Assembly: GCA_046116545.1 (NCBI GenBank)
Contig: CP175956.1
Location: 769,734 to 833,733, forward strand
Direction of reading: 5' to 3'
From: Candidatus Moraniibacteriota bacterium
Lineage (GTDB): Bacteria > Patescibacteriota > Minisyncoccia > Moranbacterales > GCA-2747515
DNA length: 64,000 nt
Both the position numbers and the translations under genes were made by a program. The notes under the pieces are model-generated. The model saw only the letters and a program-made list of their open reading frames with translations, had not been told where the DNA came from and made no database searches. Below, one piece after another: positions 3,097 through 37,931 of the stretch (positions within the stretch are counted from its first letter, which is position 1; every line of letters begins with the position of its first letter).

Positions 3097-3105
3097 ATCC
3101 GTTCC

Positions 3106-4209: not shown

Positions 4210-4330
4210 CTGACATCCTCCTTTTTTTGGTTATTGTTAAAAAACTATAGTTTTTTACTCTACCATGTAATTTATTTTATGTAAATTATATATGCACATT
4301 GCTTTACATTTATTTATACTGTCAACTAAT

Positions 4331-4371
4331 AAAAAATTAAAAACACATACCATTTATAATGATATGTGTTT
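4331..4371 (-). terminator. rho-independent terminator downstream of the PRTase-like gene
   Basis: Hairpin AAACACATA/TATGTGTTT with an A-run on the + strand (a U-tract on the minus transcript) at 4331-4342. Confidence 0.45.
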
Positions 4372-4400
4372 TGCTTACGCTCCCTCCGACAACGGATAGA

Positions 4401-5390: not shown

Positions 5391-5408
5391 TGTACAGCCC
5401 TCCTATAA

Positions 5409-6731
5409 TTAAGGATTTTTAAGTTTTTGTAATAATTCAGATTCAACAAGACTTTCTTGCGTTCCATTTACAAAATCTTTTAACGTATAAACACCTTTTT
5501 CAATCTCATCTTCACCAATGAAAATCACAAATGGTATACCTTTCCTATTAGCATACTTCAACTTCTGTTTCAATTTCCCATTACTAAATGAAATTTCTGT
5601 AGCAATGTTATCATTCCTCAAAGCTGTTGCTATTGCAATACTGCTATCAATATCATCTGTCATCGGAATAATCAACACTCTTGTCTTTGTTGAAGATTTT
5701 ATCTCCAACAAACCCTTCTTGCGAAGTTGGTCAAAGAGTCGCGTCAATCCGATAGAAATACCAACACCTGGTAATTTGCGATCAGTATACGCACTTGCGA
5801 GATCATCATATCGTCCACCAGAACATACAGACCCAAACTCTGGATACTCATCCAGTTGTGTCTCATAGACTGTTCCTGTGTAATAATCCAAACCACGTGC
5901 TATCGTAAGATCAATTACAAAATTTGACTCCGGCACACCAAACTGCTTCATCATCTCTGTAACTTTCTGCAATTCTTCTACACCTTCATCAAACTGAGCA
6001 CTCTCAATATTCAAGTTGCTCAAGCCTTCTAAGACACAAGCTGCATCACCCTTCAAGGAAAGAAATTCAAAAATACGATCAACTGTTGCTTTAGTAACTC
6101 CCAACTCAATCAGCTCATCTACAACAGCATCACGTCCTATTTTCTCCAACTTATCGATAGAACGCATAATATCAGCTGAAAGATTCGTAATTTCCAATCC
6201 TTCAAATAGTCCATTGAAAACCTTACGATTATTCACACGAATTGTGAATGCGTCAAAGCCAAGTTTTTTGAAAATCATATAGATTACACTTGGAATTTCA
6301 GCATCAAACCGCAAATCCAACACTTCATCACCTATGACATCAATATCACACTGGTAGAACTCACGAAAGCGTCCTGCTTGAGATCGTTCACCTCTAAAAA
6401 CTTTTCCTATAGCATATCTTCGAAATGGAAAAGCAATTTCACCATAGTGTTCAACTACATAACGAGAAAGTGGTACTGTAAGATCAAACCGCATCGCAAG
6501 CTCAGAACTGCCCTTAGTAAATCTGTAGATTTGTTTTTCAGTCTCTCCCCCAGCTTTAGCAAGTAATGCCTCTGCACGCTCCAGAATCGGCGTATTAATC
6601 GGCGAAAAACCAAATGTTTCATATGACTGCCGAATCACGTCAAGCATATCATTAAATACAATTTGTTCTTCTGGTAATAATTCCATGAAACCTGAAAGTG
6701 CTCTTGTTGTAACTCCATTTTTTTTACTCAT
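5409..6731 (-). CDS. hisS: histidyl-tRNA synthetase
   Basis: 440 aa class II aaRS with an N-terminus typical of HisRS (…LPEEQ…, RFDLTVPLSRYV, FRGERSQAGRFREFYQCD). Confidence 0.9.
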   Translation of the reverse strand: MSKKNGVTTRALSGFMELLPEEQIVFNDMLDVIRQSYETFGFSPINTPILERAEALLAKAGGETEKQIYRFTKGSSELAMRFDLTVPLSRYVVEHYGEIAFPFRRYAIGKVFRGERSQAGRFREFYQCDIDVIGDEVLDLRFDAEIPSVIYMIFKKLGFDAFTIRVNNRKVFNGLFEGLEITNLSADIMRSIDKLEKIGRDAVVDELIELGVTKATVDRIFEFLSLKGDAACVLEGLSNLNIESAQFDEGVEELQKVTEMMKQFGVPESNFVIDLTIARGLDYYTGTVYETQLDEYPEFGSVCSGGRYDDLASAYTDRKLPGVGISIGLTRLFDQLRKKGLLEIKSSTKTRVLIIPMTDDIDSSIAIATALRNDNIATEISFSNGKLKQKLKYANRKGIPFVIFIGEDEIEKGVYTLKDFVNGTQESLVESELLQKLKNP

Positions 6732-7064
6732 ATTAATCTCCTCCTAATTACAATTTATGTTAATGTACTTTAATAATAACTAACACCCTTATTAGTTTGT
6801 CTCAAAGTAGCATTTGAAACCTGTTTTGTCAATAAATAACTCAATATAATTTAATTTTAATTATAAGTATTTATATAAAACTAGTTTCATTAAAAAAATA
6901 TTTTCTTAATATATTTTCATTATACATCAAATAAAAGAACTGCCCAATTTTTGTACAACAAAAAATTACTTCAACATTTCAATATATTAATAATTATAAT
7001 AAATACACAAAATATATCATTGCAAAAAATTTATTTTGTTGATAAGTTACGAAATAGTAAAAAA

Positions 7065-8735
7065 TCACCTTCGTTTGAACATTTTTTCTAGTTCTTCTTT
7101 TGATATTTCAACTTGACTAGGACGACCATGCGGACATGTATACCCCGTATTTGTTTCTTGTAATTTTTCTAATAGACGACGGCGTTCTTCCACTGTTAAA
7201 TAATCTCCTGCTTTTATAGCACTACGACACGCCAAATAATCCAAAGTTCTCTCAGTACGATAATCTAACTCTAGCGGTTCTTTTTCAGTTGCCATGTCAT
7301 CCAACATTTCTTTGATCAAAGCTGCCAAATCTCTGTCTTTGAAAAACTCCGGCACAGAAGTTAGTTTAAACGTATTTTCTCCAAAATCTTCAATGATAAA
7401 ACCTATGCTTTGAATTTCCTCTTGCTTCTCTATCAAAAAATCTGCTTCTTTCTTTGGCAATTCAATAATCACTGGGTCTTTCAATTCAACAATTTGCTTA
7501 TCTAAATTTTGATAAGCATCTTTTAATTCTTCAAACAAAATTCTCTCATGAGCAGCATGTTGATCGGTTATCATTAAACCTTTTCCTGTTTCATTGATCA
7601 AATACGTATTGTGAAGCTGAGCCACTTCGACCTTAGAATAATCCTTTTCTTTTACTGTCCATAAGTCAGTTGTCTTTTTCACAATATCTGCACTATTTCC
7701 ATCAAAGTCTGTTTCCTCTTGATCCGAGTTAAGCTGATAAGTTAGATCATTTTTAGTCAAAGTATCTTGAATCGCACTAGTTAAAGCATCCAACATTTCT
7801 TTTTGATTCAATATTTTCACTTCTTCCTTTCGTGGATGAACATTAACATCTATACTTTGTGCAGGCATTGTCACAAACAACATGAAAACTGGATAATCTC
7901 TAGGAGACAACAATGACTGATATGTTTCTCTAACACGCAGTGCAATTGCAGGATTTTTAATTGCACGATTATTTATAAAAAGAAATTGTCTTGACCTCGT
8001 TTTTGTAGATATTTGTGGCCTACCTATAAAACCACTTATTTGCGAATAAGCCGAACTAGCCTCAATTGGTAAAAGGTGCGAGAAAATCTCCAAACCCAAA
8101 ACTTTCTGAACCCGAGCCTCCAAAGTATCTCCAGACAAAAAACGAAAAACTTCCTTATCATTATGAGTCAAACTAAAACTAATTTCTGGAAAAGTTAATG
8201 CTACATTACTTACCACTTGAAAAATCTTGCGAGTAACATTGCTTTTTGATTTCACAAAACGCAGACGTGCTGGAGTATTTACAAACAAATCCGAAACTGT
8301 AACAACCGTTCCTCTGTTCATAGCAATTTCTTTTATTTCTATCTCACCCGTAGCTAATGAAGTCAATTGATACGCAATATCCGCCTCACTAGTTTTACTC
8401 TTAATAACAAAATTACTCACAGCACTGATACTAGCAAGTGCTTCACCCCTAAATCCCAGTGAATCAATATTCCAAAGATCATCAATATCCGATATTTTAC
8501 TCGTAGTATGTAAATTTATAGAATTCTCCAAATCTTCTCTACCCATCCCCACTCCATCATCCACAATACTTATCTTTTTGAAACCAGCACCTTCAATATC
8601 AACCTTAATATTTTTTGCTCCCGCATCAATAGCATTCTCAAGCAATTCCTTAACAACCGAAGCAGGACTTTCCACCACTTCTCCAGCCGCAATTTTACTC
8701 ACTAATTCTTTTGATAATTGTTTTATTTTACTCAT
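7065..8735 (-). CDS. mutL: DNA mismatch repair protein MutL
   Basis: N-terminal GHKL ATPase motifs: LSKELVSKIAAGEVVESPASVVKELLENAIDAGA and IVDDGVGMGREDL. Confidence 0.9.
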   Translation of the reverse strand: MSKIKQLSKELVSKIAAGEVVESPASVVKELLENAIDAGAKNIKVDIEGAGFKKISIVDDGVGMGREDLENSINLHTTSKISDIDDLWNIDSLGFRGEALASISAVSNFVIKSKTSEADIAYQLTSLATGEIEIKEIAMNRGTVVTVSDLFVNTPARLRFVKSKSNVTRKIFQVVSNVALTFPEISFSLTHNDKEVFRFLSGDTLEARVQKVLGLEIFSHLLPIEASSAYSQISGFIGRPQISTKTRSRQFLFINNRAIKNPAIALRVRETYQSLLSPRDYPVFMLFVTMPAQSIDVNVHPRKEEVKILNQKEMLDALTSAIQDTLTKNDLTYQLNSDQEETDFDGNSADIVKKTTDLWTVKEKDYSKVEVAQLHNTYLINETGKGLMITDQHAAHERILFEELKDAYQNLDKQIVELKDPVIIELPKKEADFLIEKQEEIQSIGFIIEDFGENTFKLTSVPEFFKDRDLAALIKEMLDDMATEKEPLELDYRTERTLDYLACRSAIKAGDYLTVEERRRLLEKLQETNTGYTCPHGRPSQVEISKEELEKMFKRR

Positions 8736-24887: not shown

Positions 24888-25679
24888 CTATTGATATTTA
24901 TCAATCATATTAATCATTTTGATAAGATATTGTCCTGCCATATCCCAATTTACAGGATCTAATGCGTTACCACTCTCCCTCAGTTTACCCTGTGCATCAA
25001 CACTGATATTGTTATGGGATTGCATGACTGGTTCAGATAACTGATATGTCTCTGGACCAAGTCCACCCGCAATACTGATGCCGATATCTGGTAAATCATT
25101 TTGAATTGCTTCAATAAATGGAATAAGTGATGGTGCGTCCATACCGATTCCACGCCCCATACTTTTATCCAAGAGGACACGATGCAAAACTTCATCATAT
25201 GCATATTTACCAAGTCTATCCACAAGTGCACGTGGATTGTTATCAATCTCTTCAAATGCTTGCTTACCGATTTGCAAAATGATTTCTGGATGTATTCCTG
25301 AGTCAGTAATAGCTGCAAAAATCTGATGTCTATCAGGCCAAACTAAATCTAGTTGTAAGGCGTGCATATATTTGCCACCATATATAATTGCCAATCTCAA
25401 ACTTTTCCACAACTCTGGACGTTTTTTACTATCTGCATAATGCAAACAATACATAACATCATCTGCATAATCACCATCAAATATAGATGCGATTACTTCA
25501 TTACGTGGGAATGCATCTGTCCACTTTGTTGGCCATCCATGAAGAGTTTTGTAACTCATCATCACACCAACATGCAATTTGTATTGAAAATTGCCTGGCT
25601 CATGAGAATTAAAGACTTTTGCCATAGCAACTACTTCTTTGACGTCCATAAAATCAGTAATGCCAACATATGGTTGCAT
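24888..25679 (-). CDS. TIM-barrel protein resembling phosphoribosylanthranilate isomerase (TrpF-like)
   Basis: PYVGITDF near the N-terminus (compare KICGIT), and GISIAGGLGPE ... ISVDAQGKLRESG at the C-terminus (compare the TrpF GGL phosphate-binding end). Confidence 0.3.
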   Translation of the reverse strand: MQPYVGITDFMDVKEVVAMAKVFNSHEPGNFQYKLHVGVMMSYKTLHGWPTKWTDAFPRNEVIASIFDGDYADDVMYCLHYADSKKRPELWKSLRLAIIYGGKYMHALQLDLVWPDRHQIFAAITDSGIHPEIILQIGKQAFEEIDNNPRALVDRLGKYAYDEVLHRVLLDKSMGRGIGMDAPSLIPFIEAIQNDLPDIGISIAGGLGPETYQLSEPVMQSHNNISVDAQGKLRESGNALDPVNWDMAGQYLIKMINMIDKYQ

Positions 25680-25905: not shown

Positions 25906-26131
25906 AAAAAACACCCAACCAATGAGTGTTTTATTTCTAGCAAGTTCCTGAATCAAGTTCAGGATGACATTTACATGTCATAATCTTTTGCGGTTAGTCC
26001 TTATCGATACTATTACCTTTGAGCCGTACATTACAATTATGTATATAAAAGATACATAATCGACCAAAATGGGTTTTAAGAACTTGATGTGACCATCAAC
26101 TCTTTCACCTTTACGCCCTAGAAAGGAGGTG
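25906..26131 (-). repeat. orphan duplicate of the 16S rRNA 3' trailer (terminator hairpin, REP variant, processing-stem half), ending in the last 12 nt of 16S (CACCTCCTTTCT) but lacking the 16S body
   Basis: About 90% identical to 33192-33430, for example tgtcataatcttttgcggttagtcct...gagccgtacattacaattatgt...cgaccaaaatgggttttaagaacttgatgtgaccatcaactcttt. The terminator hairpin ACACCCAACCAATGAGTGT is present in both copies. Confidence 0.7.
25945..25969. repeat. REP-like variant TTCCTGAATCAAGTTCAGGATGACA
   Basis: Stem TCCTGAA/TTCAGGA ending in GGATGACA, related to the 53077/53418 copies. Confidence 0.5.
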
Positions 26132-26245
26132 TTTGGGACCTGACATAACACGCAAAATTGTGCAAAAAACTACTATAACAACTGAGATGAGTTTGATAAA
26201 TTAAATTACTGTTTTATATAGTCATTCTACTGCATAGCCAATAAA
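26122..26245 (+). repeat. repeat element 'P2' copy A: AAAGGAGGTG + conserved 23-codon TTG ORF + ~40 nt tail
   Basis: aaaggaggtgtttgggacctgacataacacgcaaaattgtgcaaaaaactactataacaactgagatgagtttgataaattaaattact is ~95% identical to 31635-31725. The ORF TTG 26133..26204 translates as MGPDITRKIVQKTTITTEMSLIN. Confidence 0.65.
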
Positions 26246-26411
26246 ATGCAAATGCTAATAAAAAACCCTTATTTAAAACTATTATTAAAAATTCTATCCA
26301 CATTGCGTTATCTAATATCTGTGTTAAAATTCGAAGTAATTGAATTATTTATCAATGAAAAACTAAAATATAGCATCTTTTTATTTTAAAAATGTTAATA
26401 TACATTATGAT

Positions 26412-27353
26412 ATGAAAATTAGATTAAACAATTTAAATAACATTATTATTTTACCTGATAAAGTTATTGTTGACACAAATGACAACATTATATCAATTGC
26501 CGATGTCTCTTGTATAAACGTTATAAAAAAACTTTTAGATCAAAAACTAAATGGGGGGAATTCCGTTTTGGTTCTTAATAAAAAACAGTTAAACAATGAA
26601 AGCATCAAATTATTACTTAAAGAAAATATTTTTTTGGATACAGAAGAACATTCCATTAAAGAAGTCCTCCAATTATTTAATTTTTTCAGTAACCCTAATA
26701 TAAATAATATTGAAATACCCTATAAGCAATCATTAGAAATAACAAAATCCGTACACAAAAAAAATATTCCTTGGATTTCTGAAAAAAAACCTACTGTGGC
26801 AAGATATTCTCATAGAGATTTTTCTGACAAAAAAATTACTAAATCATCATTAAAAAAAATTGCAAAAACAAGTTATGGACTCTTATGGCAACAAAAAACT
26901 AGTCCATTTATTTCTCATACCCCCATAGCTTCAGCTGGCGCACTAAATCCTTTAAGGTTATTCTTTATTATTAAGGAACAAGAAATATTTAAAGTAGTTT
27001 ATTTTAATAAAGAATCAAATACTTTTGACTCACATTTTCAACTATCCATACAAGACTTCAAAGATTGTTTAGTTGAAGACTTGCATCCAGGATGTCTAAA
27101 TGCACCTTATTTTGCACTGATCGCAAGCGATTTAAGTTTTATTTGTGCTAAGTATGGATACAGAGGATTACAATATTCAATTTTAGAAGGCGGAGCACTC
27201 TCACATCAACTAAGTGCCTCTATGTTAAAAGAACAAATATATTCAGTTCATTTAGGTGGTTTTTATGAAGAAAGAATACAAAATAAATTAAATTTTCAAA
27301 AATTTTCAAACACCGTTCCTTTATTGCTAATAGCTTTTGGATATAAGAAATAA
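26412..27353 (+). CDS. SagB-type (McbC-like) FMN-dependent dehydrogenase, nitroreductase fold
   Basis: ARYSHRDF (nitroreductase RxSxRxF motif) and TPIASAGALNPLRLFF (compare SagB-type PSAGGLYPLE). Confidence 0.55.
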   Translation: MKIRLNNLNNIIILPDKVIVDTNDNIISIADVSCINVIKKLLDQKLNGGNSVLVLNKKQLNNESIKLLLKENIFLDTEEHSIKEVLQLFNFFSNPNINNIEIPYKQSLEITKSVHKKNIPWISEKKPTVARYSHRDFSDKKITKSSLKKIAKTSYGLLWQQKTSPFISHTPIASAGALNPLRLFFIIKEQEIFKVVYFNKESNTFDSHFQLSIQDFKDCLVEDLHPGCLNAPYFALIASDLSFICAKYGYRGLQYSILEGGALSHQLSASMLKEQIYSVHLGGFYEERIQNKLNFQKFSNTVPLLLIAFGYKK

Positions 27354-27355
27354 CT

Positions 27356-29122
27356 ATGATACTCAAATATACTAACAAACTTAATACTTCTGCATTACTA
27401 ATCATAGAAAATGAAGATAATATATTTTTTCTTTTACCTGAAAAAATAATTATATTTGAAAAAATTGATAATTTCATAGACAGCCTTGAAAAAAATAATA
27501 TTGAAACTATACGAATTTTGAAAAAATATGATTTATTCAATACTAAGAAAAATGATTATATTCTTTTAAATAAATCTAAAAAGCAGTTTGGCAATGAAGT
27601 CTCAAAAAGAAAATGTGATTATTCAAATGAAATACTCTTAGCTTATTATGTTTTTACAAAAAATATTAACGACATAACAAGAAAAATCATTTTATCATCA
27701 TTCTCCAAAAAAAACCCAGAATATAATTATATACTAAAAAATATTTTACAAAAAAATAATCTTATATACGCAAAAATTTCTTTATTTCAAAAAATAACCC
27801 CGCACCTTACTGATTCAAAAAAATATACTTCTAAAATTAACATACCACAGCTATTTTCAACTCAAACCATAAATGATAAAACAAAATTATTTTCTTCAAT
27901 TGGTCCAATTATAAACATTCAAAGGGCAGAACCTCAAAAAAATATTTCTACTTTACAGAGTTATTTAGCCACATATAGAGTTCCTTCTCTAGAAAATTCT
28001 CATATACATGAAAATTATAGCTCAAATGGATATGACTCTAATGAAAATATAGCGCTACTCAAATCCGTTGCAGAAGCTCATGAAAGATTCTCATCAGGAT
28101 ATATAGATAAAAACCAGATAGTCAAATTGGATACAAAAAAATTATTGGATATGGATAGAATTTATAAATATTTAGGAATTTCAAAAAAAAAGTTTTTAAA
28201 CAATGAATATATTTGCATCCCACCTAAATCAAAAACATATCCAACAATTAAGGGTAATGTACTGAATGCTGACCTAGAATGGTATGCTCCAATTGATATA
28301 GTCAAATTTCCATATCGACCAGAATATTTTGATAGATTTACATTTGCAAACTCATCAGGAGTTGCTGCTGGCAAGGATTATGCTGATGCATGCATAAGAG
28401 CACTTTTTGAATACTCGGAAAGACATTTTTTAATGAAACATTGGTTATTTGAAATACCTTTTAAAAAAATAAATAAGACTAGTCTTCCGTTAGATATTCA
28501 AGATTATATTAAATCACTGGAAAAAAAAGACACTGGAAAAATAATTGTTGCTACAATGAATTGTAATATAAACCCTCATATTGTAGCAATGTACATAAAT
28601 AAAGAATCTTGGCCAGCATTTCACATATGTGCATCAGCTGACTCAAATAAAGAAAGCGCTCTTAAAAAGGCACTGGACGAATTAGCTAACACTATTATTT
28701 TTTGTCCACTATTCCGAGAAAAAATAAATTTAGCCCCCGAAGATGTTGTAGGAGCTCGTGAACATTATAGTTTTTATCATGATCCTGATAATTTTAAAAC
28801 CATCGACAATAAAAACCTCCTAACAAAAAAATCTATTTGTTGGACTGATGTCCCAACATCTACAAATATAAACTCGAAATTCACTGATGCAAAATTAAAA
28901 AATTTAGTTCAACAAATGACAACTGAATTTGGTGAAATTACAGCTTTTGATGTAACATCTCCTGAAACAAAAAATTTTTATTTAACTGTCGTAAAAATTA
29001 TAACTGAAAAAGGTATTCCTCTCTGGTTTGGAAATTCTGATCTGCCCCTAAATAAAGAAACTATCAAATTAAAAAATAAACAAATTAAAAATTCATTTAT
29101 CAATATACATCCATTAGGTTAG
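27356..29122 (+). CDS. YcaO-domain protein (TOMM-type cyclodehydratase, with N-terminal extension)
   Basis: FANSSGVAAGKDYADACIRALFEYSERHFLMKHW matches the YcaO ATP-binding core (SxGxAAG...E..ER[DH]). At 588 aa it is consistent with a fused C/D-type protein. Confidence 0.6.
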   Translation: MILKYTNKLNTSALLIIENEDNIFFLLPEKIIIFEKIDNFIDSLEKNNIETIRILKKYDLFNTKKNDYILLNKSKKQFGNEVSKRKCDYSNEILLAYYVFTKNINDITRKIILSSFSKKNPEYNYILKNILQKNNLIYAKISLFQKITPHLTDSKKYTSKINIPQLFSTQTINDKTKLFSSIGPIINIQRAEPQKNISTLQSYLATYRVPSLENSHIHENYSSNGYDSNENIALLKSVAEAHERFSSGYIDKNQIVKLDTKKLLDMDRIYKYLGISKKKFLNNEYICIPPKSKTYPTIKGNVLNADLEWYAPIDIVKFPYRPEYFDRFTFANSSGVAAGKDYADACIRALFEYSERHFLMKHWLFEIPFKKINKTSLPLDIQDYIKSLEKKDTGKIIVATMNCNINPHIVAMYINKESWPAFHICASADSNKESALKKALDELANTIIFCPLFREKINLAPEDVVGAREHYSFYHDPDNFKTIDNKNLLTKKSICWTDVPTSTNINSKFTDAKLKNLVQQMTTEFGEITAFDVTSPETKNFYLTVVKIITEKGIPLWFGNSDLPLNKETIKLKNKQIKNSFINIHPLG

Positions 29123-29134
29123 TCAAACTTAAAT

Positions 29135-29845
29135 TTACGCTTTTGTACAATCACTTACACTTATTTTTTTTGCAATTATCAGCTCACCAGCTGAATAATA
29201 ATTACCTTTCCAAGCTAAATTAAAAGCTGATAAACTTATTACCGTTTCTTTATGATAAGGAAGTCCTGGATCACTGATTAATATTTCATCCTTTTTCGTG
29301 TTCAATCCTACTATTAATATATAATGACCCCCTATTTCTTTACTGGCTTCATCATACAATACAAATGGATTTACACCTGCCATAATGAAAGAATTGTTGT
29401 TATTGTTAATGATTTTTTTTATATCTCGATAACCATCATCTTTCATAACAACACCTGCATCATATGCTAATTTAACAGCTTTATGATAATTATCCATATT
29501 GAAATATTTTTCCAAATATTGTATAGCATCAATTCCCATGATATCAATTCCATGTGTATATATCTGCGCCCAGCTTACTGGCATCGGAATATTCATGATA
29601 ACCTGCATCCCCTCTTTAGCTAAAACATATGCTGCTATTGCTTGAATTGTGTTTTCTTTTATATCTCTCTCCCTGAATAAGAAACTATCTAACTGCACAG
29701 GGTCTTTGTATACAGACTTATTTTTGTAAGCATTGATAATTCCAGCTACGCAGGCAGCTACACAACGACTATTATCTGTCGAGTTTTTTAGAGCAAAATA
29801 ATATTTACTGTCATTTAATTTATTGAACATACCAAGTAGTTCCAT
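29135..29845 (-). CDS. C39-like papain-fold cysteine peptidase
   Basis: DNSRCVAACVAGIINAY (Cys-containing N-terminal motif), GHYILIVG (His), ISDPGL (Asp-Pro), in C39-like order and spacing. Confidence 0.45.
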   Translation of the reverse strand: MELLGMFNKLNDSKYYFALKNSTDNSRCVAACVAGIINAYKNKSVYKDPVQLDSFLFRERDIKENTIQAIAAYVLAKEGMQVIMNIPMPVSWAQIYTHGIDIMGIDAIQYLEKYFNMDNYHKAVKLAYDAGVVMKDDGYRDIKKIINNNNNSFIMAGVNPFVLYDEASKEIGGHYILIVGLNTKKDEILISDPGLPYHKETVISLSAFNLAWKGNYYSAGELIIAKKISVSDCTKA

Positions 29846-31232
29846 CTTTATTATCCTTCAATGTTATCCCCATTTGGAATAATTCTTCCTTTACTTTGTC
29901 CGCTTCAGACCAATTCTTTTTCACTCTATATTTATTTCTTTTTTGTATTTTTTGTTCAATTTCTTCTTTTTTTTCATCAGGAATACTTTGTTCATTAAAA
30001 AGTAAAAATCCAAAAATTGAATCCCAATCTTTAAAAAAAGATATAATATCTATAACATTTTTATCGCTTACTTGATTAGTGTCCATAATCTTATTAACTT
30101 CAGTAATAAACTCATGTACATTAGATATTGCTAGAGCTGTATTTAAGTCATCATTCATTGCCTTAATAATTTTTTGTCTTGTATTTTCAATTAAATGATC
30201 AATTGAATGATTATTATCACGTCCTATTTGTTCTTTTGTTCTTATTATAAAATTTTGGATTCTACCTAACGACCTATCAGCAGACCTTAAACCTTCAAAT
30301 GTAAAATTCAAGTTTTCCCTATAATTACTAGTTAAAATTAAGTATCTAAATGCCATGGGATTAGAAACTTCTTTCAACACATCGTTTAAAACATAAAAAT
30401 TTTTTAAACTTTTTGACATTTTTTTTCCATCTATTTTTAAATGCTCTCGGTGAAGCCAATATTTAACAAATTTTTGACCCGTTGAAGCCTCACTTTGTGC
30501 TATTTCATTTTCATGATGGGGGAAAATCAAATCTACAGCGCCAGTATGAATATCAAAAGTATTCCCTAAATTTTTCATACTCATAGCTGAACATTCTATA
30601 TGCCATCCTGGACGCCCCCTACCAAAAGATGATTGCCAAAAGTTATCACCATCTTTTTTTTGCCATGCCTTCCAAAGCACAAAATCAGATGCATTATCTT
30701 TTTCGTATTCATCTAATTCTATACGTCCACTAGCACCTTCTTTCAACATTCTTTTTTTTAAATTTGATAATTTTCCATAATTTTTGAATTTAGAAATTTC
30801 AAAATACACAGATCCATCGTTAGCTCTATATGCATATCCCTTATCTATCAAGTCTTGTATCAATACAATCATTTCATCAATGTAATCTGTTGCTTTACAG
30901 ATTTTTTTTGGTTTTAATATATTAAGCATATTAAAATCAGCAAATAAAGATTCTGTATAAAAATTTGTATATTCTTCAAGTGTTGTATGTTCTTTTTGTG
31001 AACCTTTTATAGTTTTATCATCAACATCTGTAATATTCATTACATCTATTATTTCATATCCACTATATTGTAAATATCTTTTTAATAAATCTGCAAATAA
31101 ATACGTACTTAAATTTCCTATATGTGCATAATCATATACCGTTGGTCCACAGGAATACATTTTAACAATATTCTTGTTTAATGATTCAAAAACCTCTTTT
31201 TTTCGTGATAGTGTATTATATAATTTAATCAT
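29820..31232 (-). CDS. cysS: cysteinyl-tRNA synthetase
   Basis: YSCGPTVYDYAHIGN (HIGH region) and KMSKSLKNF (KMSKS). Confidence 0.9.
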   Translation of the reverse strand: MIKLYNTLSRKKEVFESLNKNIVKMYSCGPTVYDYAHIGNLSTYLFADLLKRYLQYSGYEIIDVMNITDVDDKTIKGSQKEHTTLEEYTNFYTESLFADFNMLNILKPKKICKATDYIDEMIVLIQDLIDKGYAYRANDGSVYFEISKFKNYGKLSNLKKRMLKEGASGRIELDEYEKDNASDFVLWKAWQKKDGDNFWQSSFGRGRPGWHIECSAMSMKNLGNTFDIHTGAVDLIFPHHENEIAQSEASTGQKFVKYWLHREHLKIDGKKMSKSLKNFYVLNDVLKEVSNPMAFRYLILTSNYRENLNFTFEGLRSADRSLGRIQNFIIRTKEQIGRDNNHSIDHLIENTRQKIIKAMNDDLNTALAISNVHEFITEVNKIMDTNQVSDKNVIDIISFFKDWDSIFGFLLFNEQSIPDEKKEEIEQKIQKRNKYRVKKNWSEADKVKEELFQMGITLKDNKDGTTWYVQ

Positions 31233-31306
31233 TGCTTTAAAAATATATCCAAAAAAGAAATATCACCATAAAGTGATATCTCTATCATCCCTTTGAAAAT
31301 AGAAAT

Positions 31307-31498
31307 CTACTTCAAGATCAATCCTGTACCTGAAGAAGAACTTCCACTACAAAGCATTGCTTTTGATTTTTTTGTAACTATTTGTACCTTTGAATCACTC
31401 TTTTCAGATTTATTTACATCAACTGCTCCTGTACCTGAAGAAGAACTTCCACTACAAAGCATTGCTTTTGATTTTTTTGTAACTATTTGTACCTTCAT
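31307..31498 (-). CDS. small ORF inside a tandem 105-bp duplication; Cys/Ser/Gly-rich repeated peptide (MKVQIVTKKSKAMLCSGSSSSGTG x2)
   Basis: Track ORF with an ATG start. The unit cctgtacctgaagaagaacttccactacaaagcattgcttttgatttttttgtaactatttgtacctt occurs twice, about 105 nt apart. A weak hairpin (ATATCAC/GTGATAT) plus U-tract follows at ~31250-31281, before cysS. Confidence 0.35.
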   Translation of the reverse strand: MKVQIVTKKSKAMLCSGSSSSGTGAVDVNKSEKSDSKVQIVTKKSKAMLCSGSSSSGTGLILK

Positions 31499-31634
31499 AA
31501 TAATATAAGTTATTGATTTATTATATACACTATCGACCTTTAATTTAATTATAGGCTAATTTTATATATCAGTCAATTGGCTCACAGATATATAACTATA
31601 AAAAATCATAATTTTTTATAGCTTACTCACCCCA

Positions 31635-31760
31635 AAGGAGGTGTTTGGGACCTGACATAACACGCAAAATTGTGCAAAAAACTACTGTAACAACTGAGAA
31701 AAGTTTGATAAATTAAATTACTACTTTACACATTTATTCTACTGCATATACCGTAAGCTG
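31635..31760 (+). repeat. repeat element 'P2' copy B (AAAGGAGGTG + 23-codon TTG ORF 31646..31717: MGPDITRKIVQKTTVTTEKSLIN)
   Basis: See copy A. It lies between the terminator of the 408-aa gene and the tandem-repeat ORF. Confidence 0.65.
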
Positions 31761-31774
31761 TAAATGAAAAATTA

Positions 31775-31807
31775 AAAGATCTACAAAATATTATTATGTA
31801 GATCTTT
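31775..31807 (-). terminator. rho-independent terminator after the 408-aa gene
   Basis: Perfect 11-bp stem AAAGATCTACA/TGTAGATCTTT, with an A-run on the + strand side (a U-tract on the minus transcript). Confidence 0.55.
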
Positions 31808-31826: not shown

Positions 31827-33053
31827 TTAAACCAAATTACTCTTCCCTGCTAATGGCAAAGAACAATTCTCTAACCTATCCTTATTAACAAGACATGGCT
31901 GTATCCAAGTTTTTGGAGCATTTACAGATCCATAACTTCCCCATGCCTTACGCCAATGACCTCTACGCCAATGAACACTTTTTTCACGACTAACACGAGT
32001 TTTATGTATTTCTGATACAATCTCCACACTTTTCTCATACAAATCACTGTCTGCTAAAGTTATATCGAAAATATCATCAGGACATGTCACCATAGCACAC
32101 TCATTAGTCTCAAGGTGACTATTTCTTTTTTTATTGCTGTCATGATCAGAAAAATTACCCATGGACAAAGATTCCATGTACATACACGTACTCAATACAA
32201 TATGTTGAGCTTTGTCACATGCAGAATACATCATGTAAATATCCTCTTCCTCCATTTTTTGTGTAAGATCCTTTACAGTATTAAAACCAGCAACCTCTAA
32301 CCGTTTAGTAAATTTGCTCTGATCAGCCTCAAGAGACTGTGATACAGGATCTGTGAGGATATCTCCTTTATAACCTCTTGTAGTGACATGAAATTCATCA
32401 AGTATTCCTTCAGTTAAAAGGAGCAACTTTTTTTTAATCTTTTCAACACTTATTCTGCCTTTTTTGACAGCTTTAGAAATTTTTTGTTTATCAAGAGATT
32501 TATAATCACAGAGAGTCCTAGGAAAAAGTATAAAATGTTTCATTTCCATACGATCTCTTCTGTCAATAAATCCACCAACCTCACTAACTAAAATGATATC
32601 ATATTCCTTATCACGTGCTCCAATAATCGGATCATCCAGAGTTAATACAAATGACTTGAATGGCCATTTAATATCTTGCCAAGTAAATCCATCTAAAGAA
32701 GTTGCGCTCAACAGCGTTTGCACATTTGATGTTAGTGACAGTGTTTTTCTTGAATGTTTATTCCATGCAAATAAATTCATCGGTAACGGACCGACATTCC
32801 GTAAAACACCTGCCGATAATTCATATGATCCTGTAAATTTATCATAATCATAATCACCATCAACAGCATTTTTTAAGATATGTTGTCGAAATTCCTTATA
32901 ATGCTTAACTGGCCCCTGAAAATCAGGCTTTCTTGAGTTTTTATATTTCTTGTTTCTTAGACCAGCAATTGTGAACTGCTGCACTAAAAAACAAACATCT
33001 TCCCATAAAGCCACTGCTTTATTTAACCTATCTGAAACATGAATCTTATCCAT
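31827..33053 (-). CDS. hypothetical protein (408 aa) between the 16S trailer and the P2 repeat
   Basis: Long ORF with no recognisable motif and a basic, Trp-rich C-terminus (HWRRGHWRKAWG). Confidence 0.45.
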   Translation of the reverse strand: MDKIHVSDRLNKAVALWEDVCFLVQQFTIAGLRNKKYKNSRKPDFQGPVKHYKEFRQHILKNAVDGDYDYDKFTGSYELSAGVLRNVGPLPMNLFAWNKHSRKTLSLTSNVQTLLSATSLDGFTWQDIKWPFKSFVLTLDDPIIGARDKEYDIILVSEVGGFIDRRDRMEMKHFILFPRTLCDYKSLDKQKISKAVKKGRISVEKIKKKLLLLTEGILDEFHVTTRGYKGDILTDPVSQSLEADQSKFTKRLEVAGFNTVKDLTQKMEEEDIYMMYSACDKAQHIVLSTCMYMESLSMGNFSDHDSNKKRNSHLETNECAMVTCPDDIFDITLADSDLYEKSVEIVSEIHKTRVSREKSVHWRRGHWRKAWGSYGSVNAPKTWIQPCLVNKDRLENCSLPLAGKSNLV

Positions 33054-33191
33054 GAAGTCCTCCTCTGTATATGTAATTTTTAAGAAACTAAGTGTAAAAT
33101 AATATTATTATTTCTAATTCAAACTACTAAAAATAACATTGTATAATACACTATTTTTCTTAAATTGTCAAGGTCACTCTCAAAACAAAAA

Positions 33192-33210
33192 ACACCCAAC
33201 CAATGAGTGT
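33192..33210 (-). terminator. 16S rRNA transcription terminator
   Basis: On the minus transcript: ACACUCA-uugg-UUGGGUGU (contains a G-U pair) followed by UUUUUUG. The same hairpin is present in the orphan trailer copy. Confidence 0.55.
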
Positions 33211-33248
33211 CTTTAAATTCTAACAAGTTTACGTAATAACACACTAAG

Positions 33249-33272
33249 ATTCCTGCCTTCGCAGGAATGACA
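33249..33272. repeat. REP-like palindromic element ATTCCTGCCTTCGCAGGAATGACA (copy 3), in the 16S trailer
   Basis: Exact copy. Confidence 0.7.
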
Positions 33273-33421
33273 TTTGTGTCATAATCTTTTGCGGTTAGTC
33301 CTTTCGATACTATTACCTTTGAGCCGTACATTACAATTATGTGTATAAAAGACACATAATCGACCAAAATGGGTTTTAAGAACTTGATGTGACCATCAAC
33401 TCTTTACACCTTTACTCCCTA

Positions 33422-34914
<1,493 letters not shown>

Positions 34915-35440
34915 AAACGATATCTTACCCGAAAAAGGTAAGACCATCTCTGCTCGAATCAACATTTAACGAGATGTATTGCGATGAACCGTAGTTCATC
35001 TAATTTGACTAGACTCAAAGATTAATAGATCGGATTGTTATTACATATAAATATGTAATAACGGTTTGTTGTTCCAACTTAATAAAAAGTTCATACAACT
35101 TTTAAGGACTAACCACAAAAAATTATGAACTTCATATTTCTTTATGATTGGTATATTTGCTAGTTGTCTTCAAATACTGTTACAAAAGTATTTGATTACA
35201 ATATATTATATTTTTAAAGTTCTTGCTCTCACTTTCTCTATCGAGAAAGAAAAACACATCTCTAGAAACTTTATCATACAAATAAAATTTTGTCCAGAGA
35301 TGTATTATTCTTTCATTCAATTCATTACGAATGGAGTTAACAATACTTCCGTTACTCATGTCTCTTCTTTTATTAACACTAAAGCCTATTATACATGTAA
35401 AAAAAATACTGTCAAGCTTTTTGCTTTGTGCATAGAAAAA

Positions 35441-35504: not shown

Positions 35505-36251
35505 TTATTTAGACGAAAGAGTCTTCATCAATCCTTCGGTTACTTTCACCGCCTCACCAACATTTTCAACCAGAGTTTTAAGCTCTGGCTTACGCAAGTC
35601 TTTTTTAGATTCTTCAACAAAGCCTGCAATAGTATTGAGAGCTGTCTGAAGAACATCTTTTTCTTCTTCCAGCTTTTTTGCTGCGTCAGCACCTTGTTTA
35701 AGTGCATGCACCTTACCATCTATAGACTTTTGCATCTGCGTCTTTTTTTCTTCAGCAACCGTTATAGCATTTTGCATACGCGCCGCTTGAGATTCATTAG
35801 ATTCAACCTTCTTTCGAAAATTAGCCAATGCATCTCTGAACTCTTCCGACTGCCTTTCTATCTCAGCAGCATAAATATCTTCCCGCTCATTAAGCTGCTC
35901 TTTCAGTTTTTCATGCTTTTTTATAAGTTCTGCATTTTCTGCCTGAAATTCTTGCATGCTTTCAAACAGATATTTTACCTTGGCTTCACCATGTGCTTGG
36001 ATACCTTTAACCGATGCATCTGCAAGGATATGTTCCAGAGATTTCTTCTGGACATGCACTGAATTTTTCTTTTCAGATTTTTTCTCACCTCTGCGAGCCG
36101 TACACGTCGGACAAGGACAGTCATCATCACCCAATGCCTCTCCCATCATAAGACGCCCAAGTAAGCTACCTAGTCCTAGACCATCAAAACCTGGACCACC
36201 CATAAACTCATGATCACGAAACTTCTCAAACAAACTTTCATTACCTGCCAT
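35505..36251 (-). CDS. coiled-coil protein with a Cys-rich N-terminal segment (CPCPTC)
   Basis: Start chosen at MAGNES, which follows GGAGAAAG. The track ORF extends further to 36341. The rest is a long Glu/Lys/Gln-rich helical region. Confidence 0.45.
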   Translation of the reverse strand: MAGNESLFEKFRDHEFMGGPGFDGLGLGSLLGRLMMGEALGDDDCPCPTCTARRGEKKSEKKNSVHVQKKSLEHILADASVKGIQAHGEAKVKYLFESMQEFQAENAELIKKHEKLKEQLNEREDIYAAEIERQSEEFRDALANFRKKVESNESQAARMQNAITVAEEKKTQMQKSIDGKVHALKQGADAAKKLEEEKDVLQTALNTIAGFVEESKKDLRKPELKTLVENVGEAVKVTEGLMKTLSSK

Positions 36252-36428
36252 ACTCTTTCTCCTACTTTTAAAAGTTTTATAATGTAAAACAACAAAAAAA
36301 TTATCACTTCCAATATTTTTATTGGAAGATAAATCATACAACTAAACAACACCATAGTCAAGGAATTTTTTTATAAAAAAGCTGACAATCACAAATATGA
36401 TTGTCAGCTTTAGAGTAACCAACAACGA

Positions 36429-37034
36429 CTATATTTTTGCAACGTCAGCTGTTTCAAGCCAGGTTGTTATGGCCGTGTCATATGCAGCAGTAAGCGCAAA
36501 TACTTTCTTAGCAAGCATGAGCCTGGTCTCAAGAGTTGTATTACCGAGTGCTTTAATTTCTTCAATGACTTTCGGATAATCAGCAGGATCAACAATTACT
36601 GTAACATCTCTCCAATTTTTTGCTGCTGCCCGCAACATTGTCGGACCACCGATGTCAATGTTCTCAATTGCATCATCCAGTTTGCAATTTGGATCTGCAA
36701 CAGTACTTTCAAATGCATACAAATTCACTGCAATGAGATCAATATTTTGAATGCCCTGCTTAGCACATTGCATTCGATGACTTTCATTCTCTCGCTGATT
36801 GAGTATACCACCATGTACTTTTGGATGTAGTGTCTTTACACGACCATCCAACATTTCTGGAAACCCAGTAAAGTCTGAGACATCTGTAACCCACAATTTT
36901 GCATCCCGCAACTTCTTAGCAGTTCCACCGGTAGAAAGTAACTCAATGCCCAGTTCTACAAGTTCCAAAGCAAATCCCTCTATGCCTGATTTATCTGTCA
37001 GGCTGATAAGAGCTCTTTCAATCACATTGTCCAT
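36429..37034 (-). CDS. IMP cyclohydrolase domain protein (PurH N-terminal/MGS-like half only)
   Basis: [51 protein letters not shown] and [17 protein letters not shown] are the canonical IMPCH motifs. There is no AICAR transformylase half. Confidence 0.7.
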
Positions 37035-37185
37035 TGTATCTTTCTCCTTTTTGCTCTATTCCTGATAATAAAGTCATAATTTCATTTACACAATCAGGTG
37101 TGTTTTTATATTATCAAAACTATATAAATTATTAAAGAAACGATTTCTAAATATACAACTCTCTAATCTGTTTGTCAAATAAAAC

Positions 37186-37217
37186 AATGCTCATGCTATT
37201 TATATAGCATGAGCATT
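37186..37217 (-). terminator. terminator hairpin overlapping the stop of the URO-D/MetE-like gene
   Basis: 14-bp perfect stem AATGCTCATGCTAT/ATAGCATGAGCATT, followed by a U-rich run on the minus transcript. Confidence 0.45.
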
Positions 37218-37931
37218 ATATCTCACAAAATTACTTTCATATAATAATCTCTGTGACAAAAAATTGAGCTTATTAAAAGCAATTTCACAGTCAATAGGTT
37301 TATATGCCAATGGAGACATTCCACACGGATAAGTCAATAAATCGCCTTTTTGAAAATCTCTAATATCACGCATGTGTTGCACACCCCATGCGACTACCGC
37401 TCCATACTTTCTATACTCTGGAAATAAAACTGGAAGATTTACTCTTGTTGCATCAAGGCTAATTATATTTACACCAGATCTGAATAATCTTTCCCAGTTT
37501 GCATCACCACATGTATGTATTCCTGAAGTGACATCAAATTCATCAAATATTGAACTCCAAGCCAACTCATAATCCAATTCAACTGGAAGCTTATCTAAAC
37601 CAGGTTCATCCAAAAATAAAATAATTTGATCTGCACACAATCCATCAAGCAATACCTTGATATATTCACATGCCGCAACCACAGCATCGTCTAGACTGTA
37701 TTTACCAGTTCGAAACAATGTCACAGGACCAGCACACTGAATCTTTGCTCGTGAAAATTCATTCTCCTTAAATTTTTGTAAACCTGCTGGCTTACGAGAT
37801 TGTCCAATATCATCTACCATTGAGTCGCCAAGTAGTGGTAATTCAGGTAATGCTGGAATTGGATAACGCAATCTATCTTTTATAGCGAGTCTCACGCTCG
37901 TTTGTGGCGAAGAACCTATTTGTGTAAACAT
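37200..37931 (-). CDS. URO-D/MetE-like (cobalamin-independent methionine synthase C-terminal-like) family protein
   Basis: GIHTCGD and PCGMSP resemble the Zn-binding His/Cys motifs of the UROD/MetE fold. The call is weak. Confidence 0.3.
   Translation of the reverse strand: MFTQIGSSPQTSVRLAIKDRLRYPIPALPELPLLGDSMVDDIGQSRKPAGLQKFKENEFSRAKIQCAGPVTLFRTGKYSLDDAVVAACEYIKVLLDGLCADQIILFLDEPGLDKLPVELDYELAWSSIFDEFDVTSGIHTCGDANWERLFRSGVNIISLDATRVNLPVLFPEYRKYGAVVAWGVQHMRDIRDFQKGDLLTYPCGMSPLAYKPIDCEIAFNKLNFLSQRLLYESNFVRYNAHAI

What the first reader, a model, noticed from the sequence alone, without database searches (positions are those of the whole stretch)
31293..31508. Tandem 105-bp duplication encoding a Cys/Ser/Gly-rich repeated peptide upstream of cysS - candidate RiPP precursor or small RNA
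A ~68-bp core within a 105-bp unit (cctgtacctgaagaagaacttccactacaaagcattgcttttgatttttttgtaactatttgtacctt) is present twice in tandem. The minus-strand ORF starts with ATG, is co-oriented with cysS and the C39 peptidase, and encodes MKVQIVTKKSKAMLCSGSSSSGTG twice. Its CSGSSSSGTG composition resembles TOMM/LAP core peptides. A weak hairpin plus U-tract (~31250-31281) separates it from cysS. It lies ~2 kb from the YcaO gene and directly downstream, in minus sense, of P2 repeat copy B. The plus-strand alternative starts with TTG and encodes a hydrophobic repeat (PVPEEELPLQSIAFDFFVTICTF x2). A period of 105 nt, which is 35 codons, preserves both frames, so the coding strand is not settled.
Basis: partly seen in the sequence, partly recalled or inferred. 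Interest (0 to 1): 0.55.

Follow-up and report, generated by a model that had tools for sequence, protein, structure and literature searches.

The report
Two-cassette azole-peptide precursor gene before cysS
The repeat is a real, conserved small gene on the minus strand that encodes two copies of a short leader plus a Cys/Ser/Thr/Gly-rich core. It is most likely the substrate of the neighbouring YcaO/dehydrogenase/C39-peptidase genes, in a rare five-gene module that always includes the cysteinyl-tRNA synthetase gene.

Summary
An exact 69-nt direct repeat (31322-31390 and 31427-31495, 105 nt apart) lies inside a 63-codon minus-strand ORF, 31307..31498.

The coding strand is now settled. Four other lineages carry the same small ORF in the same place: upstream of cysS and a C39-like peptidase gene, convergent with SagB-like dehydrogenase and YcaO genes. 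Their YcaO is 46-55% identical and their CysS 56-69% identical to the window's.

- The peptide motif KK[ST]K[AGS][LM]LC[SN][GS][SD]xS[SC]GT[GD] is kept while third codon positions vary in 18 of 19 columns. Ser and Leu switch codon families without changing the amino acid.
- pN/pS is 0.27 in this frame, the lowest of the six frames.
- Three relatives have two units and one has a single unit.
- All five have a near-consensus sigma-70-type promoter about 47 nt upstream, and a stem-loop plus U-tract between the peptide stop and cysS.

The best reading is a two-cassette (leader-core, leader-core) precursor of a linear azol(in)e-peptide (TOMM/LAP-like) pathway. cysS and the peptidase gene would be reached by read-through.

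The peptide family has no relatives outside this clade and no curated family. The chemistry and the role of cysS are inferred, not shown.

The parts
31548..31576 (-). sigma-70-type promoter-like site TTGACT-17-TATAAT (11/12) for the peptide gene; -10 box ends about 47 nt before the ATG
   Evidence: An equivalent site is found at the same distance in all five lineages.
31307..31498 (-). 63-codon precursor-peptide gene (ATG start, TAG stop); annotated at NCBI only as a hypothetical protein, XLQ19733.1
   Evidence: Orthologues in L086, L087/L088, L089 and L090/L091/L092. Codon-level selection.
31427..31495 (-). cassette 1 (codons 2-24): KVQIVTKKSKAML leader-like segment plus CSGSSSSGTG core
31391..31426 (-). 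variable hydrophilic linker AVDVNKSEKSDS (8-14 residues in relatives)
31322..31390 (-). cassette 2 (codons 37-59), 100% identical in DNA to cassette 1
31246..31283 (-). intrinsic-terminator-like stem-loop (12 pairs, loop 4) plus U-tract between the peptide stop and the cysS start
   Evidence: A stem-loop plus U-run with a different sequence sits at the same place in all five lineages (z -2.8 to -4.7).
29820..31232 (-). cysS, canonical cysteine-tRNA ligase; no consistent promoter of its own
   Evidence: TIGR00435 at 496 bits, above the 340 cut-off. HIGN, KMSKS and the Cys28/Cys214/His239/Glu243 positions are invariant. Promoter scan.
29135..29845 (-). stand-alone C39-family cysteine peptidase-like protein (236 aa); its start overlaps the cysS end by 26 nt
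   Evidence: Pfam PF03412 at 24.1 bits (cut-off 22); all 5 orthologues match. Invariant C28, H174 and D192. Weak match to the ComA peptidase domain.
27356..29122 (+). YcaO cyclodehydratase-like protein (588 aa) with an unassigned ~220-residue N-terminal domain
   Evidence: PF02624 E 6.6e-21. TIGR03604 SagD family at 91.5 bits, below cut-off. Nearest solved relative is MusD, 7u58.
26412..27353 (+). SagB-like nitroreductase-fold dehydrogenase (313 aa)
   Evidence: PF00881 at 25.2 bits (cut-off 23.5). TIGR03605 at 31.6 bits, below cut-off. KYGYRG motif.

Best explanation
The repeat lies in a translated minus-strand gene for a 63-residue peptide made of two cassettes. Each cassette has a short basic beta-strand-like recognition segment (KVxxxTKKSKALL) followed by a ten-residue core (CSGSSSSGTG). 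A near-consensus promoter drives the gene, and a stem-loop plus U-tract follows it. Read-through of that stem-loop supplies cysS and the overlapping C39-like peptidase gene. The convergent operon encodes a SagB-like FMN dehydrogenase and a YcaO cyclodehydratase. The inferred mechanism is that YcaO cyclodehydrates the invariant Cys, and probably the invariant Ser/Thr, of each core to azolines. The dehydrogenase then oxidises them to azoles, and the C39-like protease cuts the cassettes apart, giving two copies of one small linear azole peptide per translation. Shown here: the gene is real, conserved, duplicated internally and strictly linked to these enzymes. Inferred: substrate status, the chemistry, the cleavage sites and transcription by read-through. 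In this lineage the two cassettes are kept identical by gene conversion or very recent re-duplication.
For: Exact repeat and ORF.
Conserved five-gene module (SagB, YcaO, then convergent C39-like, cysS, small ORF) in L086, L087/L088, L089 and L091, at YcaO 46-55%, C39 47-61% and CysS 56-69% identity.
Peptides conserved at the protein level. Invariant in the first cassette of the four full-length sequences aligned: K8, K9, K11, L14, C15, S16, G17, S20, S21, G22, T23, G24.
Coding frame: variable columns by codon position are 11/7/18 of 19. Ser TCN<->AGY and Leu TTR<->CTN switches keep the residue. In L090 the two cassettes differ at 9 of 57 nt with one amino-acid change.
pN/pS 0.27 and 75% amino-acid identity in this frame, the best of six.
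Promoter at a fixed distance in all lineages.
Stem-loop plus U-tract after the stop in all lineages.
Lack of a Shine-Dalgarno site is normal here (34 of 47 long ORFs).
Enzyme identities.
The module and peptide are absent from 80 more distant cysS loci.
Against: There is no expression, mass-spectrometry or enzymatic data.
YcaO and SagB score below the curated TOMM-specific cut-offs (TIGR03604 91.5 vs 219; TIGR03605 31.6 vs 78.4).
The leader-binding (RRE/E1-like) domain could not be recognised, and the AlphaFold models were too poor to use (pLDDT 42 and 33).
The leader-like segment is only ~13 residues.
The peptide has no GG/GA/GS site of the kind C39 peptidases normally cut.
No exporter or immunity gene belongs to the conserved module.
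An essential housekeeping gene sits in the middle of the operon, which is odd for a toxin cluster.
In L089 SagB and YcaO are each split between two frames while the peptide gene (one unit, GTG start), cysS and C39 are intact. If that is real decay, the peptide can persist without the enzymes.
Confidence: 0.68

Rival explanations
1. The small ORF is mainly a cis-regulatory leader peptide. Its translation, which needs Cys-, Ser-, Gly- and Thr-tRNAs, would set how much transcription passes the hairpin into cysS, as pheM does for pheST. Its position next to the YcaO genes would be incidental.
For: It lies directly upstream of cysS in all five lineages, with a stem-loop plus U-tract between them and no consistent separate cysS promoter. 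It contains one or two Cys codons per unit.
Against: There is no run of Cys codons. The whole 19-residue motif is under amino-acid-level selection, not just particular codons. The ORF is long and internally duplicated. The stop codon lies about 22-29 nt before the stem by my own count on the, 46 sequences, and the folds show no conserved alternative (antiterminator) pairing. No T-box or other Rfam element is present.
Confidence: 0.1
2. It is a real small basic protein with its own function, for example binding nucleic acid, metal or CysRS. It is not a substrate of YcaO, and the YcaO/SagB pair acts on some other protein.
For: The gene is clearly coding and conserved. It is Lys-rich. It appears to be constitutively promoted together with an essential gene. 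In L089 it is intact while SagB and YcaO are frame-split. Some YcaO proteins are known to act on full-size proteins, e.g. McrA thioamidation (own knowledge).
Against: The invariant residues (Cys, Ser, Ser, Gly, Thr, Gly) are what azole-forming YcaO enzymes use. The peptide occurs only where this YcaO subfamily occurs. The repeated cassette design resembles multi-core RiPP precursors. No protein family matches.
Confidence: 0.15
3. The region is non-coding (a small RNA or plain duplicated spacer), or the plus-strand TTG ORF (PVPEEELPLQSIAFDFFVTICTF x2) is the gene.
For: The plus frame is open in all five lineages. A promoter and terminator flank a ~250-nt unit.
Against: The plus frame is open because the sense peptide lacks Tyr and His, and the window's two Gln codons each follow a codon ending in A. 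It is less conserved than the sense frame (58% vs 75% identity, pN/pS 0.46 vs 0.27). It has no conserved start, and it runs against the conserved promoter and terminator. DNA identity between lineages is only 34-44 of 57 nt while the peptide is kept, which does not fit an RNA conserved in sequence. No Rfam match.
Confidence: 0.02

Closest known systems
Linear azol(in)e-containing peptides / TOMM clusters (microcin B17 McbA-BCD, streptolysin S SagA-BCD, plantazolicin)
   Same: A SagB-type nitroreductase-fold dehydrogenase and a YcaO cyclodehydratase sit next to a small gene whose C-terminal part is rich in Cys, Ser, Thr and Gly. The core CSGSSSSGTG resembles the Gly/Ser/Cys tracts of McbA (own knowledge).
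   Different: There are two leader-core cassettes in one ORF. The leader is only ~13 residues. The enzymes score below the curated SagB/SagD cut-offs. There is no CaaX- or TldD/E-type protease, exporter or immunity gene in the conserved module. Housekeeping cysS lies inside the operon. The host is a candidate-phyla-radiation MAG.
Cyanobactin pathways (PatE precursor with several core cassettes; PatD/TruD/MusD heterocyclases)
   Same: The precursor has repeated cassettes, and the nearest solved relative of the YcaO by sequence is MusD (7u58, E 1.8e-5).
   Different: No PatA/PatG subtilisin-type proteases are present. The whole recognition segment is repeated with each core, rather than one leader serving several cores. 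The YcaO protein is 588 residues rather than ~780.
Double-glycine leader peptides cut by C39 peptidase domains (ComA, LahT)
   Same: The 236-aa neighbour matches Pfam Peptidase_C39 in all five lineages and keeps the Cys/His/Asp positions.
   Different: It is a stand-alone soluble protein with no ABC transporter. The peptide has G-T-G where a GG/GA/GS site would be expected, and it lacks the usual amphipathic leader.
Leader-peptide transcription attenuators of amino-acid and aaRS operons (trpL, pheM-pheST)
   Same: A short ORF followed by a hairpin plus U-tract lies directly upstream of an aminoacyl-tRNA synthetase gene that lacks its own promoter.
   Different: There is no run of the cognate codon. 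The peptide sequence itself is conserved. No alternative antiterminator pairing was found.
RiPP structural genes followed by a partial terminator (e.g. nisA before nisB; own knowledge)
   Same: A strong promoter, a small precursor gene and a stem-loop are followed by downstream genes reached by read-through.
   Different: The first downstream gene here is an essential tRNA synthetase, not a modification enzyme.

Membership tests
TOMM / LAP biosynthetic cluster | YcaO-domain cyclodehydratase with the ATP/Mg-binding acidic motifs | tested here: met
   PF02624 E 6.6e-21, residues 224-549. E240, E243, R244, the SSGxAxG tract (S333-G339) and E352, E355, R356 are invariant in four homologues. Assigning these as the ATP-binding motifs rests on my own knowledge.
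TOMM / LAP biosynthetic cluster | Score above the curated SagD-family model cut-off (TIGR03604) | tested here: not met
   91.5 bits against a cut-off of 219.25. This is a divergent subfamily.
TOMM / LAP biosynthetic cluster | SagB-type FMN dehydrogenase | tested here: inconclusive
   Pfam Nitroreductase at 25.2 bits (cut-off 23.5). TIGR03605 at 31.6 bits against a cut-off of 78.4. A KYGYRG motif is present.
TOMM / LAP biosynthetic cluster | E1-like / RRE leader-binding domain (C protein, or fused to YcaO) | tested here: inconclusive
   The N-terminal ~220 residues have no Pfam match even at E 10. The AlphaFold model has mean pLDDT 42. Its three strands followed by helices at residues 15-57 would fit an RRE but are low confidence.
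TOMM / LAP biosynthetic cluster | Adjacent precursor with a leader and a Cys/Ser/Thr-rich core | tested here: met
   The precursor is conserved with the enzymes in five lineages.
TOMM / LAP biosynthetic cluster | Azol(in)e heterocycles in the mature product | not testable with these tools
   Needs mass spectrometry.
Curated RiPP precursor families (Pfam, NCBIfam) | Match above cut-off to any precursor model | tested here: not met
   The best matches are TIGR03892 thiazolylpeptide-type at 13.6 bits (cut-off 25) and an rSAM SSH peptide at 10.6 bits.
Cyanobactin pathway | PatA/PatG subtilisin-type proteases beside the heterocyclase | tested here: not met
   None among the ORFs that Pfam-scanned within roughly 24.1-39.0 kb of the window, and none in the related modules.
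C39 peptidase with double-glycine substrate | Catalytic Cys, His and Asp | tested here: met
   C28, H174 and D192 are invariant. The His and Asp-Pro region aligns to the ComA peptidase domain.
C39 peptidase with double-glycine substrate | GG/GA/GS cleavage motif in the peptide | tested here: not met
   No such dipeptide is conserved. The conserved element is S-G-T-G followed by A, S or L.
Leader-peptide attenuator | Cluster of codons for the regulated amino acid, and alternative terminator/antiterminator pairings overlapping the ORF end | tested here: not met
   There are one or two separated Cys codons per unit. Folds show only the terminator-like stem, about 22-29 nt after the stop.
Known cis-regulatory or small RNAs (T-box etc.) | Rfam covariance-model match | tested here: not met
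   Nothing reaches the gathering score except 16S rRNA. Only chance-level hits appear at E up to 10.

The most novel reading that the evidence does not exclude
The peptide and cysteinyl-tRNA synthetase are functionally coupled, not merely neighbours. In this clade the only evident route to cysS transcription runs through a strongly promoted, Cys/Ser-rich azole-peptide precursor gene and its hairpin, and the protease gene is translationally coupled to cysS. The modified peptide could then act on, or depend on, CysRS or tRNA-Cys. For example, it could be an intracellular regulator or inhibitor with cysS co-expression as protection, or the ORF could double as a charging sensor. That would make it a housekeeping-linked RiPP in a reduced candidate-phyla-radiation genome, not a secreted toxin.
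Probability: 0.12. Interest if true: 0.75.

Novelty: new variant of a known kind. Interest (0 to 1): 0.5.

Why it matters
The gene is annotated only as a hypothetical protein. This work assigns it, with comparative evidence, as the probable substrate of an unannotated azole-peptide pathway in a candidate-phyla-radiation bacterium with a 1.29-Mb genome, a group with few credible natural-product pathways. The precursor family is new. Only four sequence-distinct products matched in a search of 5.8 billion protein clusters, one further peptide (L089) was read only from contig DNA, and an exhaustive search of 1.84 billion cluster representatives found nothing further apart from one weak hit of unknown relation. 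Its leader-core, leader-core design could yield two products per translation. The strict embedding of essential cysS between the precursor and the protease is unexplained and can be tested. The five genes are small enough for direct heterologous reconstitution.

Tried and rejected
- Tandem Repeats Finder does not report the repeat, because only 69 of the 105 nt recur.
- Rfam at gathering and at E<=10 gives no RNA family in the region.
- The genome-contig scan with CysS returned only distant loci (<=49% full-length identity). None has the peptide, YcaO, SagB or C39-like genes nearby.
- Two metagenome-contig scans, one with the YcaO alignment and one with the peptide alignment, found nothing.
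- A single-peptide word search found only the query itself. The profile search added three relatives. The exhaustive profile search added only one weak hit (P0009, 643 aa, five matched stretches, E 6.4e-4), which I did not inspect.
- The AlphaFold model of YcaO with four sequences (pLDDT 42) and of the C39-like protein alone (pLDDT 33) were too poor for fold searches.
- Pfam on the N-terminal domains of YcaO and SagB gave nothing.
- Pfam and PHROGs on the upstream 408-aa ORF gave nothing usable.
- Paper searches for YcaO with Patescibacteria, cysteinyl-tRNA synthetase or candidate-phyla-radiation RiPPs found no description of this module.
- Lipoprotein signal (lipobox) reading: rejected by inspection. 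There is no hydrophobic h-region, and Leu occupies position -1.
- The D1 repeat as a structured small RNA is not supported by folding.

Full report
**The observation**

The window carries two 100%-identical 69-nt copies at 31322-31390 and 31427-31495, with start-to-start spacing of 105 nt. The 36 nt between them is not repeated on either flank. The structure is therefore 1.66 units of a 105-nt period, and Tandem Repeats Finder does not list it.

On the minus strand the repeat lies in an ATG-started 63-codon ORF, 31307..31498. It translates to MKVQIVTKKSKAMLCSGSSSSGTG-AVDVNKSEKSDS-KVQIVTKKSKAMLCSGSSSSGTG-LILK*. The repeat boundaries coincide with codons 2-24 and 37-59.

The same 63-aa product is encoded on four contigs read in the protein look-up, from JGI samples 3300083231 and 3300085957 and NCBI assembly GCA_008633345.1. 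A further assembly of the same organism, GCA_008633325.1, has a 100-N gap inside the repeat. The piece after the gap begins with 47 nt that also lie inside the repeat. The likeliest cause is an assembly break at a repeat, not evidence for a third copy, but copy number there is unresolved.

**Surroundings**

- cysS lies at 29820-31232 (-). TIGR00435 scores 496 bits against a cut-off of 340.
- A 236-aa C39-family peptidase-like gene lies at 29135-29845 (-). Its start overlaps the cysS end by 26 nt.
- Convergent with these are a 588-aa YcaO gene (27356-29122, +; PF02624 E 6.6e-21) and a 313-aa nitroreductase/SagB-like gene (26412-27353, +).
- Upstream in the minus sense lie an unassigned 408-aa ORF and a stand-alone 16S rRNA gene (33423-34915, -).
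- NCBI names the source a Candidatus Moraniibacteriota MAG, with a longest contig of 1,286,331 bp. The peptide is annotated there as a hypothetical protein, XLQ19733.1.

**Relatives**

A search with the YcaO protein found three relatives at 46-55% identity. On their contigs the arrangement is the same: SagB-like and YcaO genes on one strand, and C39-like, cysS and a small ORF convergent on the other.

The small ORFs are:

| Locus | Peptide | Units |
|---|---|---|
| L086 | MKVKTLTKKSKALLCSGSSSSGTGAISKNKKTILKVLTKKTKALLCNSDSSCGTDLIK | 2 |
| L087/L088 | MKVVLLSKKSKALLCSGDASSGTGSVSRKKEAKKSVGVKVLSKKSKALLCSGDASSGTGSVSK | 2 |
| L089 | (GTG start) MKIKVITKKTKGLLCSGDGSSGTGAIKVSNKKKK | 1 |

A profile search with the peptides added a fifth lineage (L090/L091/L092): MKVKTLTKKSKALLCSSDSSCGTGAIKQEKDTKVKVLTKKSKSLLCSSDSSCGTGLIK. 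It again lies upstream of cysS, a C39-like gene and the end of a YcaO gene.

CysS is 56-69% identical among the lineages, and the C39-like protein 47-61%. Nothing else clearly related was found:

- The exhaustive profile search of 1.84 billion representatives returned only the family itself and one weak 643-aa hit (E 6.4e-4) that I did not inspect.
- Two metagenome scans found nothing.
- None of 80 more distant cysS loci has the peptide or the enzymes within 10 kb.

**Coding strand**

Across seven distinct cassettes, the number of variable columns over 19 aligned codons is 11, 7 and 18 for codon positions 1, 2 and 3. Conserved Ser and Leu positions switch between TCN and AGY, and between TTR and CTN. 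This keeps the minus-frame amino acid and changes the plus-frame one.

In L090 the two cassettes differ at 9 of 57 nt, with a single amino-acid change. A Nei-Gojobori count gives pS 0.70, pN 0.19, pN/pS 0.27 and 75% mean amino-acid identity in the minus frame. The plus frame proposed as the alternative gives pN/pS 0.46 and 58% identity. The other four frames exceed 1.

The plus frame is open in every lineage, but this is uninformative. It shares wobble positions with the sense frame. It can only acquire a stop where a sense Tyr codon follows a codon ending in T or C, or a His/Gln codon follows one ending in T. The peptides have no Tyr or His, and the window's two Gln codons each follow a codon ending in A.

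The gene has no Shine-Dalgarno site, but neither do 34 of 47 long ORFs in the window.

**Signals**

All five lineages have a TTGAC[TA]-like hexamer, 16-17 nt, then a TATAAT-like hexamer (10-11 of 12 matches), ending about 47 nt before the start codon. In the window this is at 31576..31548.

All five also have a stable stem-loop followed by a U-run between the peptide stop and the cysS start. The sequence differs in each lineage (z -2.8 to -4.7; window stem 31283..31256).

In the window, L086 and L087 no other promoter-like site lies between the peptide promoter and cysS. I infer that cysS and the overlapping peptidase gene are transcribed by read-through.

**Enzymes**

- The YcaO alignment keeps the acidic ExxER-type motifs. 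Its best curated model is the TOMM SagD family, below cut-off (91.5 against 219 bits). Its nearest solved relative is the cyanobactin heterocyclase MusD.
- The SagB-like protein passes Pfam Nitroreductase (25.2 against 23.5 bits). It is below the SagB model cut-off (31.6 against 78.4 bits), and it has a KYGYRG motif.
- The peptidase matches Pfam C39 in all five lineages. C28, H174 and D192 are invariant. The His/Asp region aligns weakly to the ComA peptidase domain.
- The N-terminal ~220 residues of the YcaO protein could not be assigned.

**Interpretation**

The gene is real, under purifying selection in both cassettes, and strictly linked to a YcaO/dehydrogenase/peptidase set. The invariant residues (Cys15, Ser, Gly, Thr23, Gly) are those such enzymes modify.

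I therefore read it as a two-cassette precursor of a linear azol(in)e peptide. A strong promoter and a partial terminator are a layout known for other RiPP structural genes (own knowledge).

The 35-codon period is shared by the window and L087, while L086 and L090 have 31. The identical DNA tracts have different boundaries in the window (codons 2-24) and in L087 (about codons 7-27). In L090 the cassettes have accumulated synonymous differences. Together this points to an old duplication that is homogenised from time to time, not to a fresh duplication.

**Weak points**

- The enzymes are sub-threshold members of the curated TOMM families.
- The leader is very short, and no double-glycine site exists for a C39 enzyme.
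- No exporter or immunity gene belongs to the module.
- An essential gene sits between the precursor and the protease.
- In L089 the SagB and YcaO genes are each split between two frames near homopolymer runs, while the peptide, cysS and C39 genes are intact. This could be decay or assembly error.

**Rivals**

- A cysS leader-peptide attenuator is disfavoured. There are only isolated Cys codons, selection acts on the whole motif, and no alternative pairing was found.
- An unrelated small protein is not excluded.
- A non-coding or plus-strand reading is rejected.

**Comparison with known systems**

The module works like a TOMM/LAP cluster and borrows the multi-cassette idea known from cyanobactins. 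It is not a member of any curated precursor family, and it lacks cyanobactin proteases.

I file it as a new variant of a known kind. The distinguishing features are the repeated leader-core cassettes, a stand-alone C39-like protease, the invariable inclusion of cysS, and the candidate-phyla-radiation host.

I found no paper describing it.

Noticed in passing
window 33188-34915 (-): The 16S rRNA gene stands alone. No 23S rRNA gene or tRNA gene is found anywhere in the 64-kb window. A terminator-like hairpin (33214..33188) follows the 16S trailer, so the rRNA genes appear unlinked.
   Followed up: partly
window 25908-26285 and 31623-31797: Locus A (upstream of the SagB-like gene) consists of repeat D1a, then CACCTCCTTT (the last 10 nt of 16S), then a 98%-identical copy of the 16S 3' trailer, then the same terminator hairpin. 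D1b lies just upstream of the peptide promoter. It is 80% identical overall, with few mismatches in its last ~100 nt by my reading. It also ends in CACCTCCTTT and then diverges. Both copies keep a promoter-like TTT[AG]CA-17-TAGAAT on the minus strand. They are either decayed 16S 3'-end remnants or small transcripts carrying the anti-Shine-Dalgarno sequence. There is no Rfam match and no significant fold.
   Followed up: partly
window-wide; e.g. 31827-33053, 24888-25679, 36251-37931, 3096-8735 (all -): About three quarters of long ORFs have no Shine-Dalgarno site. A minority have strong GGAGG-type sites, including the unassigned 408-aa and 263-aa ORFs beside the 16S-trailer copies, and they tend to sit in higher-GC stretches. 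They may be foreign genes.
   Followed up: no
window 36429-37034 (-): A purH-like ORF has only 201 residues: the MGS domain plus the first 59 positions of the AICARFT/IMPCHase domain. It looks truncated.
   Followed up: no
L085 493-592 and 983-1082: Assembly GCA_008633325.1 has 100-N gaps inside D1b and inside the peptide repeat. After the D1b gap the sequence carries the D1a variant, so repeats were mixed or collapsed in that assembly.
   Followed up: partly
L089 7996-10741: In the single-cassette relative, the SagB-like and YcaO genes are each split between two reading frames close to A/T homopolymer runs, while cysS, the C39-like gene and the peptide gene are intact. This is either decay of the pathway or sequencing error.
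   Followed up: partly
window 31512-31540 (-) and the same position in L086, L089, L090: A short motif, AAAGGTCGA (ATGTCGA in L090, absent in L087), lies 6-9 nt after the -10 box of the peptide promoter, near the expected transcript start. Its role is unknown.
   Followed up: no
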